Below are positions 42,356-59,933 of a stretch of 64,000 bases of DNA, in pieces; the first letter of the stretch is position 1, and the number at the start of each line of letters is the position of its first letter. Below the pieces are notes generated by a model that worked only from the letters and a program-made list of their open reading frames with translations, searched no databases and was not told the DNA's origin. Made by a program: the position numbers and the translations under genes. The stretch covers positions 2,688,001 through 2,752,000 of the forward strand of contig OZ244207.1 in assembly GCA_965216875.1 (NCBI GenBank), read 5' to 3'. Source of the DNA: Rubripirellula sp. GTDB lineage: Bacteria; Planctomycetota; Planctomycetia; Pirellulales; Pirellulaceae.

Positions 42356-42580
42356 ATGTTGGTACTAAGTCGCAAAGAGGGTGAGCAACTGTTGATCGGC
42401 GATAACATCGTGTTGACGATCAATCGCATTTCAGGAAATCGAGTTGCTATCGGAATCGACGCCCCTCGCGATGTTCGGATTGTGCGAGGCGAACTACAGC
42501 GTCACGAAACGGTTGCCGGAGGATCGGCTCCGATGGCGCTCGAAGAAACCAACGTCGCGGTTGCCAGCAAACCTCACTAG
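42356..42580 (+). CDS. csrA: Carbon storage regulator CsrA-family protein
   Basis: MLVLSRKEGEQLLIGDNIVLTINRISGNRVAIGIDAPRDVRIVRGEL. Confidence 0.93.
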   Translation: MLVLSRKEGEQLLIGDNIVLTINRISGNRVAIGIDAPRDVRIVRGELQRHETVAGGSAPMALEETNVAVASKPH

Positions 42581-54261: not shown

Positions 54262-55149
<888 letters not shown>

Positions 55150-55162
55150 ACCCGATGCAACG

Positions 55163-58100
55163 ATGGCGGGTTTCGTCCCGCAAAGCACGAATCCAAATGA
55201 GGCGACTCAAGCCGGCTTTGTCTCGGGAACGCCTCACGCAGATGAATCCGGGCCGGCTCAAGCGGATCGTTCTGGGTCAGACCTTGAAACCGGCGTCGAC
55301 ACCGAAACGCCAACACAGCGGACACCCCCTGAGGCTCACGCTTCTGAAAACGATCCCGCCATCGGTACGCGGATCGGCGACTTTCTCATCACCTCGGTGA
55401 TCGCCAGTGGCGGAATGGGCACGGTCTACAAAGCCGACCAACAGGAGCCCGTTCGGCGCACCGTCGCGCTGAAAATGATCCGCAGCGGCATGGCCGACGA
55501 AGCGACGACAAAACGTTTCTTTGTCGAACGTCAAACACTCGCTCTGATGGATCATCCCGACATCGCTCGCGTCTACGATGCCGGAACGACCGCATGTGGC
55601 AATCCTTATTTCGCAATGGAGTATTGCGAAGGAAAACCGATCGACGAATATTGCTGCGATCGCAAGCTCGACGTCCCTATGCGTATCGAGCTTGTCGTCC
55701 GAATCGCGCGAGCTCTGCAACGGGCTCACGCCGCCGGTATCGTGCATCGCGACCTTAAACCGGGCAACATTCTCGTTTCTGATTGCGAGGGCCGACCAAA
55801 TCTGAAAGTGATTGATTTCGGGATCGCCAAATTCACCGACACCGATCAATATGATGAACTGTTCGCTTGTGGCGACAACCACGAGACACGAGTGGGCGAA
55901 CTGGTTGGCACGCCTGCCTACATGAGCCCCGAACAAGCCGCGGGCGCATCCATCGACGCTCGGACCGATGTCTTCGCCATCGGCGCCATCCTCTACAAAC
56001 TACTCACTGGCACGACGCCACTTCCGCCCCCGCCGAAGGGATGCGAAAGCCTGGCTGATGTCATCCAGCACATTCAATCGTTCGTGCCGGTGTCGCCAAG
56101 TCGACGTCTCGCAGCACAGGCTGTCGAGGCAGAGCAGCATGCAACAGGCGCTAATTGCGATCGCGTTTCGCAATTGCGTGCGTCCATCAAAGGCGACCTC
56201 GACTGGGTCACCCTCCGCGCAATCGACCCCGACAAGCTTCGGCGGTACGCAACCGCGGACGACTTTGCCGATGATCTTGAACGGTTTCTCAATCACCAGC
56301 CGGTCGTCGCCGCAGCACCAAGTCACCTCTATCGGTTCAAGAAGTTTTACCAGCGCCGACGTCCAACCGTCCTGGCAACCGCGATCGTTAGCGCCACCCT
56401 CCTTTTATCGCTGGCCTACGGAGGATTCAGCTGGTGGAAAACAAGGTCTGAATTGCTTGCCGATTTCGCGCAGACGACAAACGAGGTCACAACCCTGCTT
56501 TGCCAAGCCGACTCCGCACGCGTTCGCGCCGGCAAAGGCGGCCCCCATTCCGCACAAGCCTTCACCGAGGCACAGACTTCGCTTGCCAAAGCCGAATCAC
56601 GCTTAGCCAGCCTGGACGCGCTCGCACTGTCCGACGCACTGCAGAGCGAACTCAATTCGTTCCATGCCCAATTGAAAAACGCTGATCAAACCATCACCGC
56701 CGATCAGTCGGCGATGGACTTGGTCAAACGGCTAAACGATGCTCGCGAACGGGCGACACAGGTCGACCCTGCTCATGGCAGTGATGCGTTTGGCAAAACG
56801 GCTGGCTTACAAATGTTGGTGGATGCATTTGCTTCATTCGGCATTTGCCCTGACCAAGCCAGCCCTGAACAAGCAGCGCGAATCATCTTGGCCTGCCCAC
56901 CAGCCGTTCAACCGAAACTGATCGAATCGCTCGACTTTTTGGTAAACGAAGATCCGATTGGCGCAGGGATCTACATCCATCAGCAAGGCGGGCGTGTCAC
57001 GGTGGCTGAGATCACCAATGGGTCGGCGACAGATGGCGTCGACTTGCGCGCCGGTGATCGTATCATGGCCATCAACGGAGTCGATTTGCTCGATTCTTTC
57101 ACGACGAATCATTTGCGTGCAGAGACTTACCGCCTACTGTCGGCCGCGCCGGGCACCACCGTTACATTGTCGATTGTCCGAGACTTGGGACAACCGATTC
57201 AACGCGAATTAGTCTGCGGCGGCCAACGAGCCCACTGGGCGGCGAAGGTGCTCGAGCGCGTTGACCGTGATCCCTGGCGCAACCAGCTTCGACGAGCAAC
57301 GCTGACCGCTGACCTGGCATCACTCAGGAAATTGTCAGAATCGAAGGAGGTTGAAACGCAATCACCCTTCTCCTTGATACAACTGGCCGGCACGCTCTTT
57401 CTCTTGGAACGCAGCAACGCGTCGATTCGGTTTCTGAAGATCGCCCAGCAAAGACACCCGGCGAACTTTTGGGCCAACCATTACCTCGGCACAGCGTTAG
57501 CCGTCGCGCATGATCCACCCAAGCCGCGCGAAGCACTTCCCTACTTCACAGCGGCTGTTTCGTTGCGGCCCAAGAGCGTTGGAGCTCGGATGAATTTAGT
57601 CGAAGGCCTCGTGCGCGTCGGCGAAAAGGAAACGGCGCGGTTGCACGCGAGCGTCGCAGCCAAGCTGGCACCCGACTATGCACCACTTCAACAGATCGTC
57701 GCATCCCTTTCGAATTCGGCTGAGGGTGCGGACGCGGTCTCCGCCTCTGAACCTGCTGTTGCCTCTTTGCCAAGACGGTCAACGCCGACGGAAGCACTCG
57801 AATCCGATGACATCGAATCGCTCGAAGGCGTCGCGCGCGAGCTTGCCATTGTCGGTTTACGGGACGAGGCGTTTAAGCTCATCAAACAGGCTGCCGAACA
57901 ATTCCCAGGCGATCCCCGAATCCGACGGATGAAGGGAGCCGTGCTGATCGATCTACGCGATTATGTTGCGGCGCGGGTCGCTCTGTCCGATGCTGCGCGG
58001 CGAATGCCAAACGATGCTGCAACGCGTTTCTATCACGGTGTTGCACTGCAGTATTCCGGCGATAGCGATGCAGCCATCCACGAATACGAAGCGGCGTTAC

Positions 58101-58168
58101 AGATTCGCCCCGACTACAATGCGGCGCGCCGCTACTTGGAATCGCTCAAGCCGAAGCGTCAGGATTAG
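55163..58168 (+). CDS. Membrane Ser/Thr kinase with extracytoplasmic PDZ and TPR domains
   Basis: [22 protein letters not shown] and [12 protein letters not shown] helix; PDZ (GAGIY...[12 protein letters not shown]); TPRs. Confidence 0.93.
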
Positions 58169-58185
58169 GTCGAACCATCAAAACG

Positions 58186-58227
58186 AAAAAAGGCCGGGCG
58201 TGCTTCGACTCGTCGCACGTCCGGCCT
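58186..58227 (-). terminator. Intrinsic terminator (possibly bidirectional)
   Basis: 13-bp stem AGGCCGGACGTGC/GCACGCCCGGCCT with one mismatch, followed by a U-tract on the minus strand. Confidence 0.75.
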
Positions 58228-58575
58228 CAAAGTCAATCCTGACTTTTCAGTTAGCTGGCTTGTTCATCGTGGTTGAATCCATCCAACCGTCCGAGTCATC
58301 CTGACCTCGGGATTCTGGCAAAGGTTTCTTTTCCGCCGTGAGGCATCTTGCCTGTGGGTGCGCCAATCCGTGCGCCGGCGGTGTTTGAAACCCATCACCA
58401 AATTCGACGATGGTTCAGCCGGCTAATCCCACATCCCTGTGAACTGATCATTCACTCCCCTTGTGAACGGGCTGCCGTAACGCATGTGACTTACAAAATT
58501 GCGTGACGGCCAAATGACACTCTTCAACCTATCCAATCGAGCGTCGTAAGACAACGCAGAATCCTGCGAGCGAAG
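58186..58575 (-). ncRNA. Candidate CsrB/RsmZ-like CsrA-sequestering small RNA (5' end uncertain)
   Basis: 13 GGA on the minus strand vs 1 on the plus; several lie in hairpin loops matching ANGGA; ends in a GC stem + U6. Confidence 0.65.
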
Positions 58576-58741
58576 CCGCCGAGGGTAACGGTTAGTTTTT
58601 GCAGACATGTCTTTTTGAATCTGATTGAGCTCGATCTGCCAACGTCAACGACCAACCGACAAGACAGAGCAACAGCAACGATCTGAAAAAACGTTTCCGA
58701 ACCCCCGACGTTTCGCAAGCGGAGGAAACTCGCGTCGTATG

Positions 58742-59491
58742 TTAGGCAACCAAGCGATACTCTTGGTCGACTCGCTGTGTCACACCTTCGACGAACTCTT
58801 CGAAGATGCGAATGTCGAGCGCCGAAGCGGCACCACATTCAGGATGGAATTGAGTGCCCAATGCGAACCAATCCATCATTTCACTCTCGATCGCTTCGAT
58901 CACACCATCGGGGCATCGCGCGGTGACGCGGAAGCCTGGTGCAACTTCATCGATCGCCATGTGGTGACGACTGCTGACCCGAATCTCGCCATCACCGTAA
59001 ACACGTCCAACAAGCGAATCGCTTTCGACTTCGAGCGTGTGACGATGGTTGGGGTCTTGAGGATCGTGGTGAGGCACAGCCGATGGCATGTCCTCTTTAA
59101 GATGTAGGAACAGGTTTCCGCCCTGCTGGACGTTCAAGAGCTGCATTCCGGTTCCGATACCGAGCAGTGGCATGCGTCGCTCAGCAATTTCTGAGATCAA
59201 CATGCGGTCGCTCGCTTCGCGAACAGGATCAAGTGGTCGCACGCTGGGGTGCAACATAAAACCGTCGTTTCGCGGATCAAGGTCCGCCCCTCCGATCATG
59301 ATGAATCCATGCAGTTGGTCGAGCGTGGCTCGAATCGAGTCAGCGTCTTCCAACGGCGGAATCACCACTGGGATGCCTCCAGCTGCGATCACAGACTGAA
59401 AATAACCGGCGGCGATGTAGCTGTATGCGGGTGTATTGCGAGCAGCTGCACGGTAGTCGGCGTTCATCCCGATCAGTGGTTTACACGTCAT
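58742..59491 (-). CDS. Peptidase C26 / PuuD-like class I amidotransferase homologue lacking the nucleophile Cys
   Basis: IGGADLDP, LGIGTGMQ (vs LGICRG.Q), PDGVIEAIE and QFHPE. Confidence 0.88.
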   Translation of the reverse strand: MTCKPLIGMNADYRAAARNTPAYSYIAAGYFQSVIAAGGIPVVIPPLEDADSIRATLDQLHGFIMIGGADLDPRNDGFMLHPSVRPLDPVREASDRMLISEIAERRMPLLGIGTGMQLLNVQQGGNLFLHLKEDMPSAVPHHDPQDPNHRHTLEVESDSLVGRVYGDGEIRVSSRHHMAIDEVAPGFRVTARCPDGVIEAIESEMMDWFALGTQFHPECGAASALDIRIFEEFVEGVTQRVDQEYRLVA

Positions 59492-59933
59492 CCGAAAGTT
59501 CCTCTTCGGTTTCGCGAATAAAAATGTGACGCAGAGTCTTGCCGCGTCGCCCAACTGGTTGACGTCAATCAGCAACCAATCGTTTCTACGGAACCGAGTC
59601 GCTCAGCAGCACAGCCTTGGCCGTTTGCATCCGACTCGAAACAGACAAGTGAAAAGGAAGGTTTGATAAGGAGGGCCACTTTGGCGATGAGCCGGATTGT
59701 TTGCCGGTTGAGTACTTCGGCGTTCCGTTCTCGTTGTTCCAAAGTGTTTATCGACACTCTTCGCAACCTTGCAATCCCTTGCGTTGTTTTCGTCCTCGAA
59801 GCGGTCGTCTTGATGATTGGGGGTCGAAGTTGGGTTGGAAGGCACAACGGTATGCCCTCCGCGTTCGAGAGAAAATTAGCGGGAAAACTCCCAAAGACCA
59901 AAGAGCTTCCACATATTGGGGCACCTCGAGGTC

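What the first reader, a model, noticed from the sequence alone, without database searches (positions are those of the whole stretch)
58186..58575. Candidate CsrB/RsmZ-like CsrA-sponge sRNA in a planctomycete
Seen: this intergenic stretch has no credible ORF. The minus strand carries 13 GGA triplets against 1 on the plus strand, and many sit in short hairpin loops. Examples: CGCAGGAUUCUGCG (58555-58568), UUCAC-AAGGGGA-GUGAA (58451-58467), CACA-GGGA-UGUG (58430-58441), CCGAG(G)UCA-GGA-UGACUCGG (58291-58310), GGUUGGA-UGGA-UUCAACC (58271-58288, with a G-U pair only on this strand) and AAAGUCA-GGAU-UGACUUU (58229-58246). A GC stem plus U6 follows. Known: CsrA/RsmA bind A(N)GGA in hairpin loops, and CsrB/RsmY/RsmZ are multi-GGA-hairpin RNAs ending in a terminator, mostly described in Gammaproteobacteria. 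Inference: this is a CsrA-titrating sRNA, or a CsrA-binding 3' UTR of the C26 gene, in a phylum where I know of no such RNA. A host csrA lies 16 kb away.
Basis: partly seen in the sequence, partly recalled or inferred. Interest (0 to 1): 0.88.

Follow-up and report, generated by a model that had tools for sequence, protein, structure and literature searches.

The report
Planctomycete RNA studded with CsrA-type sites
Just after a conserved enzyme gene, this planctomycete and many of its relatives keep a folded non-coding RNA whose hairpin loops look like docking sites for the regulator protein CsrA, so it may be a CsrA decoy RNA in a phylum where none has been described.

Summary
The minus strand of 58186-58575 has 13 GGA against 1 on the plus strand. 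Seven GGA sit in short hairpin loops and a strong terminator with a U6 tail follows. When only A(N)GGA loops are counted, this is the single densest window on either strand of the 8.26-Mb genome, and the only non-coding one among the six densest.

The RNA is real and conserved. A ~260-nt core (58186-58447) aligns in four more genomes with compensatory base changes. By position (directly after the peptidase-C26 gene, same strand), 13 of 29 sampled Pirellulaceae loci carry two to ten such hairpins plus a strong terminator. Across 15 loci there are 55 sense hairpins against 3.9 expected and 5 antisense. The loops share CA-N-GGA-UG, the core of the published CsrA SELEX consensus.

The genome has seven CsrA genes and one FliW. 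All 61 family genomes searched have CsrA, with 2-14 matches each. Rfam has no match and I found no paper on such an RNA in Planctomycetes.

Most likely it is a CsrA-titrating decoy carried on, or cut from, the 3' UTR of the C26 mRNA. Transcription and binding are untested. It is a new RNA family of a known functional kind.

The parts
58742..59575 (-). Peptidase C26 / class-I glutamine amidotransferase gene, the conserved upstream anchor of the RNA. The ORF is given as listed; I used 58742-59491 (249 aa) for searches.
   Evidence: ORF list. Pfam PF07722 E 8e-64. An ortholog is found in 115 of 121 family genomes.
58686..58725 (-). Hairpin directly after the C26 stop codon (CCUCCG...CGGGGG), followed by AAACGU/ACGUUU and U6. 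It looks like a weak terminator. Its 5' arm UUUCCUCC is conserved within the genus.
   Evidence: Sequence, alignments, T-run at offset 50.
58555..58568 (-). Hairpin CGCA-GGAUUC-UGCG in the variable 5' part. It is only loosely kept in G002 and is absent in G001 and in the fourth genome.
58448..58468 (-). Hairpin (CG)UUCAC-AAGGGGA-GUGAA(UG), which lies next to a ~65-nt stretch present only in this genome.
58186..58447 (-). Conserved core of the RNA, including its terminator. Long-range closing helices (UCAG 58444-58447 with CUGA 58247-58250, and further inner helices) enclose the internal hairpins.
   Evidence: Alignments A3 and A5, RNAalifold and pair counts. The covariance model R1 finds a single copy in the genome.
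58429..58442 (-). Hairpin UCACA-GGGA-UGUGG. It reads ACAGGGAUGU, which equals the ACA-R-GGA-UGU core of the CsrA SELEX consensus.
   Evidence: unpaired probability 1.0 in the core fold.
58360..58375 (-). Hairpin GCGC-ACGGAUUG-GCGC. CGCACGGA is invariant in the five aligned sequences.
   Evidence: unpaired probability 0.95.
58342..58352 (-). Conserved hairpin GGCA-AGA-UGCC without a GGA. The stem changes G-C to U-A in one relative, and the loop becomes GGA in G102.
58291..58310 (-). Hairpin CCGAG(G)UCA-GGA-UGACUCGG. The sequence reads UCAGGAUGA, and the lower stem covaries between genomes.
   Evidence: unpaired probability 1.0.
58271..58288 (-). Hairpin GGUUGGA-UGGA-UUCAACC with one G-U pair. 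The sequence varies among relatives, but a GGA is kept near this position.
58229..58246 (-). Last hairpin, AAAGUCA-GGAU-UGACUUU, immediately before the terminator. It can be recognised across genera with changed stems, for example GAAGCC-AGGAAC-GGCUUC and UAGUC-AGGAC-GGCUA.
58186..58228 (-). Intrinsic terminator: a 14-bp GC-rich stem (GAGGCCGGACGUGC...GCACGCCCGGCC) followed by U6. The U-run exists on this strand only. The stem sequence is conserved across genera.
42356..42580 (+). csrA paralog (74 aa), one of seven in the genome. It is a candidate partner, but it is not a conserved neighbour of the RNA.

Best explanation
The stretch is the body of a conserved non-coding RNA on the minus strand. 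It lies directly downstream of the peptidase-C26 gene and ends at a strong intrinsic terminator (58186-58228). Its ~260-nt core folds into a closed multi-helix domain. That domain holds out four to five hairpin loops of the form A(N)GGAU, and this genome adds two or three more in a variable 5' part.

I read it as a protein decoy for CsrA-family regulators. Each CsrA dimer would clamp two GGA loops. One RNA molecule would therefore tie up two to three or more dimers and release mRNAs that CsrA otherwise represses. In most relatives the C26 gene has no other terminator. The RNA is therefore probably made as the 3' UTR of the C26 mRNA, and may then be trimmed to a stable small RNA. Decoy level would then follow C26 transcription.

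Shown here: the motif counts, their exposure in predicted folds, conservation and covariation, the linkage to C26, the match of the loops to the CsrA consensus, and the presence of many CsrA genes.

Inferred: transcription, processing, CsrA binding, which paralog binds, and titration.
For: 1. Genome-wide rank. This is the only window in 8.26 Mb, on either strand, with 6 A(N)GGA hairpin loops per 350 nt. It is also the only non-coding window among the six that have 5 or more.
2. Conservation at this position.
- Of 29 Pirellulaceae loci taken by C26 orthology, 15 have a strong terminator within 650 nt of the C26 stop.
- Between stop and terminator these 15 hold 55 sense A(N)GGA loop hairpins. 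The genome-wide rate predicts 3.9, and the antisense strand has 5.
- Over a fixed 400 nt in all 29 loci, the mean number of GGA-loop hairpins is 3.17 sense, 1.0 antisense, 1.45 in dinucleotide shuffles and 1.14 in the next 400 nt.
3. Loop context. In 75 hairpins from the 19 closest loci the counts are A at -2 in 51, C at -3 in 38, U at +1 in 43 and G at +2 in 42. Among 44,453 GGA-loop hairpins genome-wide the matching fractions are 0.20, 0.24, 0.29 and 0.31. The resulting CA-N-GGA-UG is the core of the SELEX consensus RUACARGGAUGU, as quoted in PMC7652899 section 4.
4. Structure. On five sequences, 85.9% of cells pair. 24 of 70 pairs change on both sides, against 11.3 +/- 2.5 in shuffles (0 of 500 reach the observed value) and 4-8 when the partners are slid. 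The MFE z-score is -4.5.
5. Strand.
- The U-tail is on the minus strand only.
- There are 7 G-U pairs in the core MFE and many G-U variants in the alignment.
- Linkage is to C26, not to the convergent kinase gene, which recurs in 1 of 15 other loci.
6. Partner proteins.
- There are seven PF02599 genes and one FliW in this genome.
- CsrA is found in 61 of 61 family genomes, with 2-14 matches each.
- The window's CsrA aligns with RsmE (2jpp) and E. coli CsrA over residues 1-49, including the MLxLxR start and the R-x-E near position 44.
7. Co-transcription. In 10 of 14 RNA-bearing loci there is no run of 5 or more T between the C26 stop and the terminal terminator. The first GGA hairpin starts 17-60 nt after the stop in G016, G045, G135, G082, G066 and G080.
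Against: - No transcript evidence. No RNA run holds the locus, and nothing could be laid on it.
- No binding data of any kind.
- In four loci a T-run separates C26 from the RNA body: G000, G045, G016 and G101. In G101 it follows a strong hairpin. An independent promoter is therefore possible, yet no sigma-70-like promoter was found in the spacer.
- The covariation rests on five related sequences, and the structure was derived from the same alignment.
- The full-length covariance model recovers only its four training genomes at strong E-values. It misses G016, which looks homologous by eye. Orthology across genera therefore rests on position and architecture, not on alignment.
- G083 (C26 84% identical) has only one such hairpin and no strong terminator.
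- The signal is at background in the 12 loci whose C26 is at most 72% identical and in 15 loci from other families of the order (11 sense against 9 antisense).
- The four flagellin leaders of this genome show AGGG-type Shine-Dalgarno regions and no GGA near the start codon. What these CsrA proteins bind is therefore not established from a known target.
- The core's elaborate closed fold is more than a simple decoy would need.
Confidence: 0.55

Rival explanations
1. A free-standing small-RNA gene with its own promoter, as CsrB and RsmZ are. It would merely be parked next to C26 and would act as a CsrA decoy. This has the same function as my best reading but a different origin of the transcript.
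For: - G101 has a strong hairpin plus U7 between C26 and the RNA body.
- G000 has a weak hairpin plus U6 at 58686-58725.
- G000, G001 and G002 share moderately conserved blocks 130-250 nt upstream of the core that could hold a promoter.
Against: - In 10 of 14 RNA-bearing loci there is no T-run between the C26 stop and the RNA's terminator.
- In six loci the first GGA hairpin begins 17-60 nt after the stop, which leaves no room for an intergenic promoter.
- No sigma-70-like site was found in 58169-58741 on the minus strand.
- The same-strand linkage to C26 holds across 13 or more genera while the other neighbour changes.
Confidence: 0.2
2. A cis-acting 3' UTR. CsrA, or another protein, binds the hairpins to control the stability or 3' processing of the C26 mRNA itself, without any meaningful titration of the regulator.
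For: The linkage to C26 is strict and same-strand, and the terminator is shared. The RNA is single-copy.
Against: - Four to ten high-consensus sites per RNA is far more than one mRNA would need for its own control. G135 carries ten, four of them near-identical tandem copies.
- This multiplicity, and the turnover of hairpins while their number is kept, is what decoy RNAs show.
- The two roles do not exclude each other.
Confidence: 0.12
3. A conserved structured RNA with a different partner or job, for example another RNA-binding protein, an RNase-protective 3' end, or base-pairing through its loops. The GGA loops would then not be CsrA sites.
For: - The core has a closed multi-helix fold with covarying long-range helices.
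- It has a conserved hairpin without GGA, GGCA-AGA-UGCC.
- The terminator stem is conserved in sequence across genera.
- These features are not explained by a plain decoy.
- The flagellin leaders lack GGA.
Against: - The extended loop context CA-N-GGA-UG matches the CsrA consensus well beyond the GGA triplet.
- From my knowledge, no other bacterial RNA-binding protein family is known to prefer A(N)GGA in short hairpin loops.
- CsrA is universal and multi-copy in the family.
Confidence: 0.1
4. Chance, or a repeat element: a GC-rich 3' region whose hairpins happen to carry GGA.
For: Generic GGA-loop density is not unique, since 48 windows reach 7 per 400 nt. Several other non-coding hits are palindromic repeat families.
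Against: - The RNA is single-copy in the genome.
- All its stems differ from one another.
- It ranks first genome-wide for A(N)GGA loops.
- It is conserved with compensatory changes and shows a 55: 5 sense-to-antisense ratio across 15 loci.
Confidence: 0.03

Closest known systems
RsmZ / RsmY / RsmX (Pseudomonas, Legionella) CsrA/RsmA-sequestering sRNAs
   Same: It is non-coding, has several short hairpins with A(N)GGA in the loop, has a last GGA element just before a Rho-independent terminator, and its sequence drifts quickly while the architecture is kept. The window's CsrA aligns best with RsmE, the protein solved in complex with such hairpins (2jpp).
   Different: - There is no sequence or structure match to any Rfam family.
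- The core is about twice as long and is closed by long-range helices.
- It sits directly after a protein gene on the same strand and usually shares that gene's only terminator.
- The host phylum is Planctomycetota, and fliW is present in the same genome.
- A GacA/UvrY-type upstream activating site was not looked for.
CsrB / CsrC (Enterobacteria)
   Same: Similar size class: CsrB has 22 GGA (PMC7652899, passage seen). Both are repeated GGA hairpins that act, in the known case, by competitive sequestration of CsrA dimers. The G135 version here has 22 GGA and ten A(N)GGA loop hairpins, four of them near-identical tandem copies.
   Different: CsrB and CsrC are free-standing genes driven by BarA-UvrY and are described as a family of Gammaproteobacteria (PMC7652899, PMC4682653; passages seen). 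There is no homology here.
mRNA-borne CsrA titration in FliW-type systems (flaA mRNA of Campylobacter jejuni; PMC4894983, abstract seen in the listing)
   Same: In both, a CsrA-binding element is carried on an mRNA rather than on a dedicated sRNA, and the organism also has FliW.
   Different: There the sites are in the 5' leader of the regulated flagellin mRNA, and there are only one or two of them. Here there are four to ten sites in a 3' region of an unrelated metabolic gene.
TwoAYGGAY RNA motif (recalled from memory; not seen in any call)
   Same: Hairpin loops of the form A-Y-GGA-Y. Several loops here read ACGGAU or AUGGAU.
   Different: As I recall it, that motif has two hairpins only and occurs in gut metagenomes, Clostridia and Gammaproteobacteria. 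If it is among the Rfam families searched, it did not match.

Membership tests
CsrB/CsrC/RsmX/RsmY/RsmZ RNA families as curated in Rfam | Significant covariance-model match to one of the curated families | tested here: not met
   cmscan of the whole window at gathering thresholds gave 0 matches. The permissive search of 58100-58800 at E up to 10 gave only an 11.7-bit, E = 6 match to an unrelated Enterococcus sRNA.
CsrA-sequestering (sponge) RNA, as a functional class | Several GGA motifs exposed in hairpin loops or single strands on one non-coding transcript | tested here: met
   There are seven GGA-loop hairpins, six of them A(N)GGA. Five of the 10 core GGA have unpaired probability 0.95 or more. 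No ORF is conserved.
CsrA-sequestering (sponge) RNA, as a functional class | Sites match the CsrA binding consensus beyond the GGA triplet (A(N)GGA; SELEX RUACARGGAUGU) | tested here: met
   The consensus is CA-N-GGA-UG from 75 hairpins in 19 loci, against background frequencies of 0.2-0.3. The published consensus is quoted in PMC7652899. The hairpin at 58429-58442 reads ACAGGGAUGU.
CsrA-sequestering (sponge) RNA, as a functional class | Ends in a Rho-independent terminator | tested here: met
   A 14-bp GC-rich stem plus U6 at 58186-58228. Equivalent terminators occur in 15 of 29 orthologous loci.
CsrA-sequestering (sponge) RNA, as a functional class | A CsrA-family protein is encoded by the same organism | tested here: met
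   Seven PF02599 matches above the cut-off in the genome. 61 of 61 family genomes have CsrA.
CsrA-sequestering (sponge) RNA, as a functional class | Conservation of the GGA loops with changing stems in relatives | tested here: met
CsrA-sequestering (sponge) RNA, as a functional class | Expressed as an abundant discrete RNA | not testable with these tools
   No RNA run is listed as holding the locus. Nothing was laid from four runs guessed to be RNA.
CsrA-sequestering (sponge) RNA, as a functional class | Binds CsrA at several sites and relieves CsrA-mediated repression | not testable with these tools
   No tool here models protein-RNA binding. This needs EMSA, CLIP and genetics.
Gac/Bar-Uvr-controlled sRNA genes | Own promoter with an upstream GacA/UvrY box, under a BarA/GacS-type two-component system | not tested
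   I only ran a sigma-70 consensus scan, which found no site in the spacer on the minus strand. I looked for neither a GacA/UvrY ortholog nor a box.
3'-UTR-borne or 3'-UTR-derived regulatory RNA | Same strand as the upstream gene, directly after it, and sharing its terminator | tested here: met
   Same-strand adjacency holds in all RNA-bearing loci. In 10 of 14 there is no other T-run between stop and terminator. In this genome a weak hairpin plus U6 intervenes (58686-58725), so the test is inconclusive for G000 itself.

The most novel reading that the evidence does not exclude
RNA-based antagonism of CsrA arose independently in Planctomycetota. A fast-evolving decoy, unrelated to CsrB or Rsm RNAs, rides on the 3' UTR of a near-universal single-copy metabolic gene (peptidase C26). 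It would couple that gene's transcription to the free pool of one or more of the 2-14 CsrA paralogs that Pirellulaceae carry. It would work alongside the ancestral FliW protein antagonist, not in its place.
Probability: 0.4. Interest if true: 0.8.

Novelty: new variant of a known kind. Interest (0 to 1): 0.72.

Why it matters
CsrA-titrating RNAs are described as a feature of Gammaproteobacteria. Other phyla, Planctomycetes among them, are thought to control CsrA through the protein FliW (PMC4682653 conclusions; PMC7652899). A recent survey finds CsrA especially prevalent in Planctomycetota, with up to 15 paralogs in some genomes (PMC13443453). That leaves open how so many copies are controlled.

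A conserved RNA with four to ten consensus CsrA sites gives a concrete candidate that can be tested in cultivable Pirellulaceae. If confirmed it would have three consequences:
- it would show a second, independent origin of the decoy mechanism;
- it would show that FliW and RNA decoys can coexist;
- it would provide the first defined entry point into post-transcriptional regulation in this phylum.

It also shows that architecture and position find such RNAs where covariance models fail.

Tried and rejected
- RNA-seq: no RNA holder of the locus is listed. The four holders are DNA-type contig sets from one study. Laying four runs guessed to be RNA on 57900-59700 placed nothing. Neither result bears on expression.
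- Rfam: nothing, either at gathering thresholds or at E up to 10.
- Metagenome scan with a 23-base pattern from the last hairpin: 0 matches. The same pattern in species genomes found three records, two of which I already had.
- Full-length covariance model:
  - The 234-column model R1 found only G000, G001, G002 and G102 at strong E-values among 150 family genomes. It also gave four weak partial matches of 17.6-19.6 bits.
  - It is too specific to trace the family and revealed no second copy in the genome.
- Paralog hunt in the genome by hairpin density: the other non-coding windows rich in GGA loops are palindromic repeat families or tandem repeats, not relatives of this RNA.
- Flagellin leaders as a check on what the local CsrA proteins bind: the four leaders have AGGG-type Shine-Dalgarno regions and no GGA in the last ~100 nt. 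This was uninformative.
- Sigma-54 idea: a paper reports predicted sigma-54 promoters at planctomycete csrA genes (PMC12316311). By eye, the GG and GC in the conserved TGGCAG...GC block upstream of the core are two bases too close, so I dropped the idea.
- Conserved small ORF: rejected.
- Linkage of the RNA to a csrA gene: not conserved. The distance is 16 kb here, 35 kb in G045 and about 524 kb in G002, and the two are on different contigs in G016.
- Weinberg 2010 'Rhodopirellula-1' motif: the supplementary alignment passages show a different, transposase-linked single hairpin.
- Earlier notes of this scan: none for this place or sequence. A word search returned CsrA-type candidates in other genomes only.
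- Literature: five searches found no paper describing a CsrA-binding sRNA in Planctomycetes. The library holds open-access papers and bioRxiv only.
Full report
**What is at the coordinates**

The finding lies in a 573-nt gap (58169-58741) between two convergent genes.
- On the minus strand a peptidase-C26 / class-I glutamine amidotransferase gene ends at 58742.
- On the plus strand a 1031-aa Ser/Thr kinase with PDZ and TPR domains ends at 58168.

The minus strand of 58186-58575 has 13 GGA and the plus strand 1. A mechanical scan adds a seventh, GCGC-ACGGAUUG-GCGC at 58360-58375. A 14-bp GC-rich stem followed by U6 occupies 58186-58228, and the U-run exists on the minus strand only.

**Is it more than chance?**

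Raw GGA counts are unusual but not extreme.
- About 0.6% of 390-nt windows in the 8.26-Mb genome reach 13 GGA.
- 0.27% show a strand difference of 12 or more.

Counting any GGA in a short hairpin loop is not unique either. 48 windows reach 7 per 400 nt. Only seven of these are largely free of long ORFs, and the other six are palindromic or tandem repeat families or a mixed region.

The picture changes when the count is restricted to the CsrA-type context A(N)GGA.
- This locus is then the only window on either strand with 6 such hairpins per 350 nt.
- The five other windows with 5 all lie within long ORFs.

In the partition function of the core, five of ten GGA triplets are unpaired with probability 0.95 or more. 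The mean over GGA triplets is 0.67, against 0.32 for all triplets. Both strands fold better than shuffles (z = -4.5 minus, z = -7.0 plus), so folding energy alone does not identify the strand.

**Which strand, and is it coding?**

Three things point to the minus strand.
- The U-tail is on that strand only.
- The core MFE has 7 G-U pairs, and the alignment has many G-U variants.
- The element stays with the C26 gene while the convergent neighbour changes. The kinase gives a tblastn hit in 1 of 15 other loci.

No reading frame is conserved. Translated frames of 30 residues or more hit relatives only over the terminator, in two frames and on both strands. That is nucleotide conservation, not protein conservation.

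**Relatives by sequence**

BLAST against 41 related genomes found the region once in its own genome. It also found parts of it in two genomes of the same genus and the terminator in another genus. A pattern scan of species genomes added a fourth record. The record titles there read Pirellulaceae and Rubripirellula.

Alignments show islands of conservation in a variable background. The conserved part is a ~260-nt core, 58186-58447 in the window. The 5' part (58448-58741) is variable and includes a ~65-nt stretch found only in this genome.

RNAalifold on five sequences gives a closed fold.
- Long-range helices (UCAG 58444-58447 with CUGA 58247-58250, and inner helices) enclose the internal hairpins.
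- The internal hairpins are UCACA-GGGA-UGUGG, GCGC-ACGGAUUG-GCGC, GGCA-AGA-UGCC, GGUCA-GGA-UGACC and a variable GGA hairpin.
- The last hairpin, AAAGUCA-GGAU-UGACUUU, and the terminator follow.

Pair counts on this structure are:
- 85.9% of cells pair;
- 24 of 70 pairs show changes on both sides, against 11.3 +/- 2.5 in shuffles (0 of 500 reach the observed value);
- 4-8 pairs do so when the partners are slid by one to three columns.

The caveat is that there are five related sequences and the structure was derived from the same alignment.

**Relatives by position**

The C26 gene is found in 115 of 121 sampled genomes of the family. I took the 30 best loci and read the DNA after the stop codon on the gene's strand. 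One was too short, which leaves 29.

Folds of twenty of them show the same architecture in many genera, with quite different sequences: a series of short hairpins with loops such as AAGGAU, AUGGAU, ACGGAU and CAGGAU, then a strong terminator.

Counted mechanically over a fixed 400 nt in all 29 loci, GGA-loop hairpins average as follows:
- 3.17 on the sense strand;
- 1.0 on the antisense strand;
- 1.45 in dinucleotide shuffles;
- 1.14 in the next 400 nt.

Fifteen of the 29 loci have a strong terminator within 650 nt of the C26 stop. Between stop and terminator these 15 hold 55 sense A(N)GGA loop hairpins. The genome-wide rate predicts 3.9, and the antisense strand has 5.

Thirteen of the 29 have at least two such hairpins plus the terminator, and all thirteen have a C26 protein at least 76% identical to the window's.

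The results against are these.
- G083 (84% identical) has one hairpin and no strong terminator.
- G101 has one by the strict scan, although its fold shows more.
- The 12 loci with C26 at most 72% identical are at background.
- Fifteen loci from other families of the order are at background, with 11 sense against 9 antisense.
- A full-length covariance model finds only its own four training genomes among 150, plus four weak partial matches. It misses G016.

The RNA therefore evolves fast. Outside the genus, orthology rests on position and architecture.

**The loops look like CsrA sites**

In 75 GGA-loop hairpins from the 19 closest loci, compared with 44,453 such hairpins genome-wide, the flanking bases are:

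| Position | Base | Count in the 75 | Genome-wide fraction |
|---|---|---|---|
| -2 | A | 51 | 0.20 |
| -3 | C | 38 | 0.24 |
| +1 | U | 43 | 0.29 |
| +2 | G | 42 | 0.31 |

The consensus CA-N-GGA-UG is the core of the CsrA SELEX consensus RUACARGGAUGU. In that consensus ACA and GGA were invariant, and the GGA sat in the loop of a short hairpin (review PMC7652899, section 4, passages read). The first core hairpin here reads ACAGGGAUGU. In G102 and G078 it reads ACAAGGAUGU. The hairpins come from related genomes, so the counts are not independent. Their stems differ widely, however.

**The partner proteins**

- The genome has seven CsrA-domain genes above the Pfam cut-off and a single fliW. The fliW sits beside one of the CsrA genes and a flagellin gene, about 23 kb past the RNA.
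- The window's own CsrA (42356-42580, 74 aa) aligns with RsmE (2jpp) and E. coli CsrA over residues 1-49.
- All seven keep the MLVL(S/T)R start and the AP...R.E segment.
- All 61 family genomes searched have CsrA, with 2 to 14 matches each.
- The csrA 16 kb from the RNA is not a conserved neighbour.

**How it is probably made**

In 10 of the 14 RNA-bearing loci that have a strong terminator, there is no run of five or more T between the C26 stop and that terminator. In six loci the first GGA hairpin starts only 17-60 nt after the stop. The C26 transcript must then run through the RNA, unless Rho stops it. I therefore favour a 3'-UTR-borne RNA, perhaps trimmed to a stable small RNA.

Four loci, this genome among them, do have a T-run in between. 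In G101 it follows a strong hairpin. Here it follows a weak one at 58686-58725. An internal promoter therefore cannot be excluded. A sigma-70 consensus scan found none in the spacer, but planctomycete promoters are poorly known. No public RNA data could be brought to bear.

**Mechanism proposed**

CsrA dimers have two RNA-binding faces and can bridge sites 10-63 nt apart (PMC7652899). The exposed loops of the core lie at 58436, 58369, 58301, 58280 and 58239, which gives spacings of 67, 68, 21 and 41 nt. One RNA could therefore hold two to three dimers, and more with the lineage-specific 5' hairpins.

When the RNA is abundant it would draw CsrA off mRNA leaders. If it is tied to C26 transcription, the decoy level would report whatever controls that gene.

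Everything from transcription onward is inference. I put the decoy reading, in either biogenesis form, at roughly 0.55-0.65. I put the existence of a real, conserved, structured RNA at about 0.9.

**Comparison with what is known**

The RNA works like RsmZ/RsmY and CsrB/CsrC: multiple A(N)GGA hairpins, a terminal terminator, and fast sequence drift with a stable architecture. It is not a member of those families, because no Rfam model matches.

It differs in three ways:
- its closed long-range fold;
- its fixed place after a protein gene;
- its host phylum, and the presence of fliW in the same genome.

Papers I read in part describe CsrB-type RNAs as a gammaproteobacterial feature. They suggest that Planctomycetes use FliW (PMC4682653 conclusions; PMC7652899). 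A 2026 survey reports CsrA as highly prevalent in Planctomycetota, with up to 15 paralogs in some genomes (PMC13443453). Five full-text searches found no description of a planctomycete CsrA-binding RNA. The one planctomycete-named motif of Weinberg 2010 is a different, transposase-linked hairpin. The library covers open-access papers and bioRxiv only.

**Verdict**

The thing is a new, fast-evolving RNA family of a Pirellulaceae subclade with the hallmarks of a CsrA decoy, most likely carried on the C26 3' UTR. It is a new variant of a known kind. It needs a Northern blot and a gel shift.

Noticed in passing
G000:C1:7909558-7910343 (locus L055:159-944), outside the window: One of the seven CsrA paralogs is a 261-aa fusion. 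An N-terminal CsrA domain (PF02599, E 3e-13) is joined to a C-terminal response-regulator receiver domain (PF00072, E 1e-18). That would put a CsrA under direct phosphorylation control. Two other paralogs have long C-terminal extensions (132 and 149 aa).
   Followed up: partly
G000:C1:1640043-1640830, 4259406-4260123, 3439947-3440491 and 5805830-5806534, outside the window: Intergenic arrays of palindromic repeat units, for example GGACGC-GGA-GCGTCC and GTTCCCACGG-AGGA-CCGTGGGAAC. They place GGA or GGAG at the tip of long perfect hairpins. They look like REP or MITE families and are the main false positives in a GGA-loop scan.
   Followed up: no
L027 (G135), first ~140 nt after the C26 stop: This genus's version of the RNA has four near-identical tandem hairpins, GC(C/U)GCAC-A(C/G)GGA(A/C/G)-GUGCGGC, plus six more A(N)GGA hairpins (22 GGA in 430 nt). 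The decoy seems to grow by local duplication, as CsrB-type RNAs do.
   Followed up: partly
window 58702-58728 (-): Directly after the C26 stop the genus keeps UUUCCUCC as the 5' arm of a hairpin whose 3' arm differs between genomes (CGGGGG here, a 10-bp perfect partner in the fourth genome). CCUCC is complementary to GGAGG-type sequences. Its role is unknown.
   Followed up: no
window 58186-58228 (-) and the equivalent terminators in L014-L024: The terminator stem and its loop (GGCCGG(A/G)CGUGC-(A/G)ACGAGU(C/U)GA(A/G)G-CACGCCCGGCC) are conserved in sequence across several genera. That is more than termination alone would require.
   Followed up: no
G000:C1:2770836, 3319561, 2472515 and 3317119 (flagellin genes), outside the window: There are four flagellin genes of about 680-700 aa. 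Three of their four leaders carry AGGG-type Shine-Dalgarno regions, and none has a GGA within about 100 nt of the start. This is unlike the CsrA-controlled hag and flaA leaders of other FliW-bearing bacteria.
   Followed up: partly
G000:C1:2139282-2139884, outside the window: A gene-free stretch built of ~200-nt direct repeats, with an embedded run of a 10-nt tandem unit (CATTTACGTT).
   Followed up: no
window 55073-58168 (+): The convergent neighbour is a 1031-aa Ser/Thr protein kinase with PDZ and TPR domains. It is not a conserved neighbour of the RNA.
   Followed up: partly
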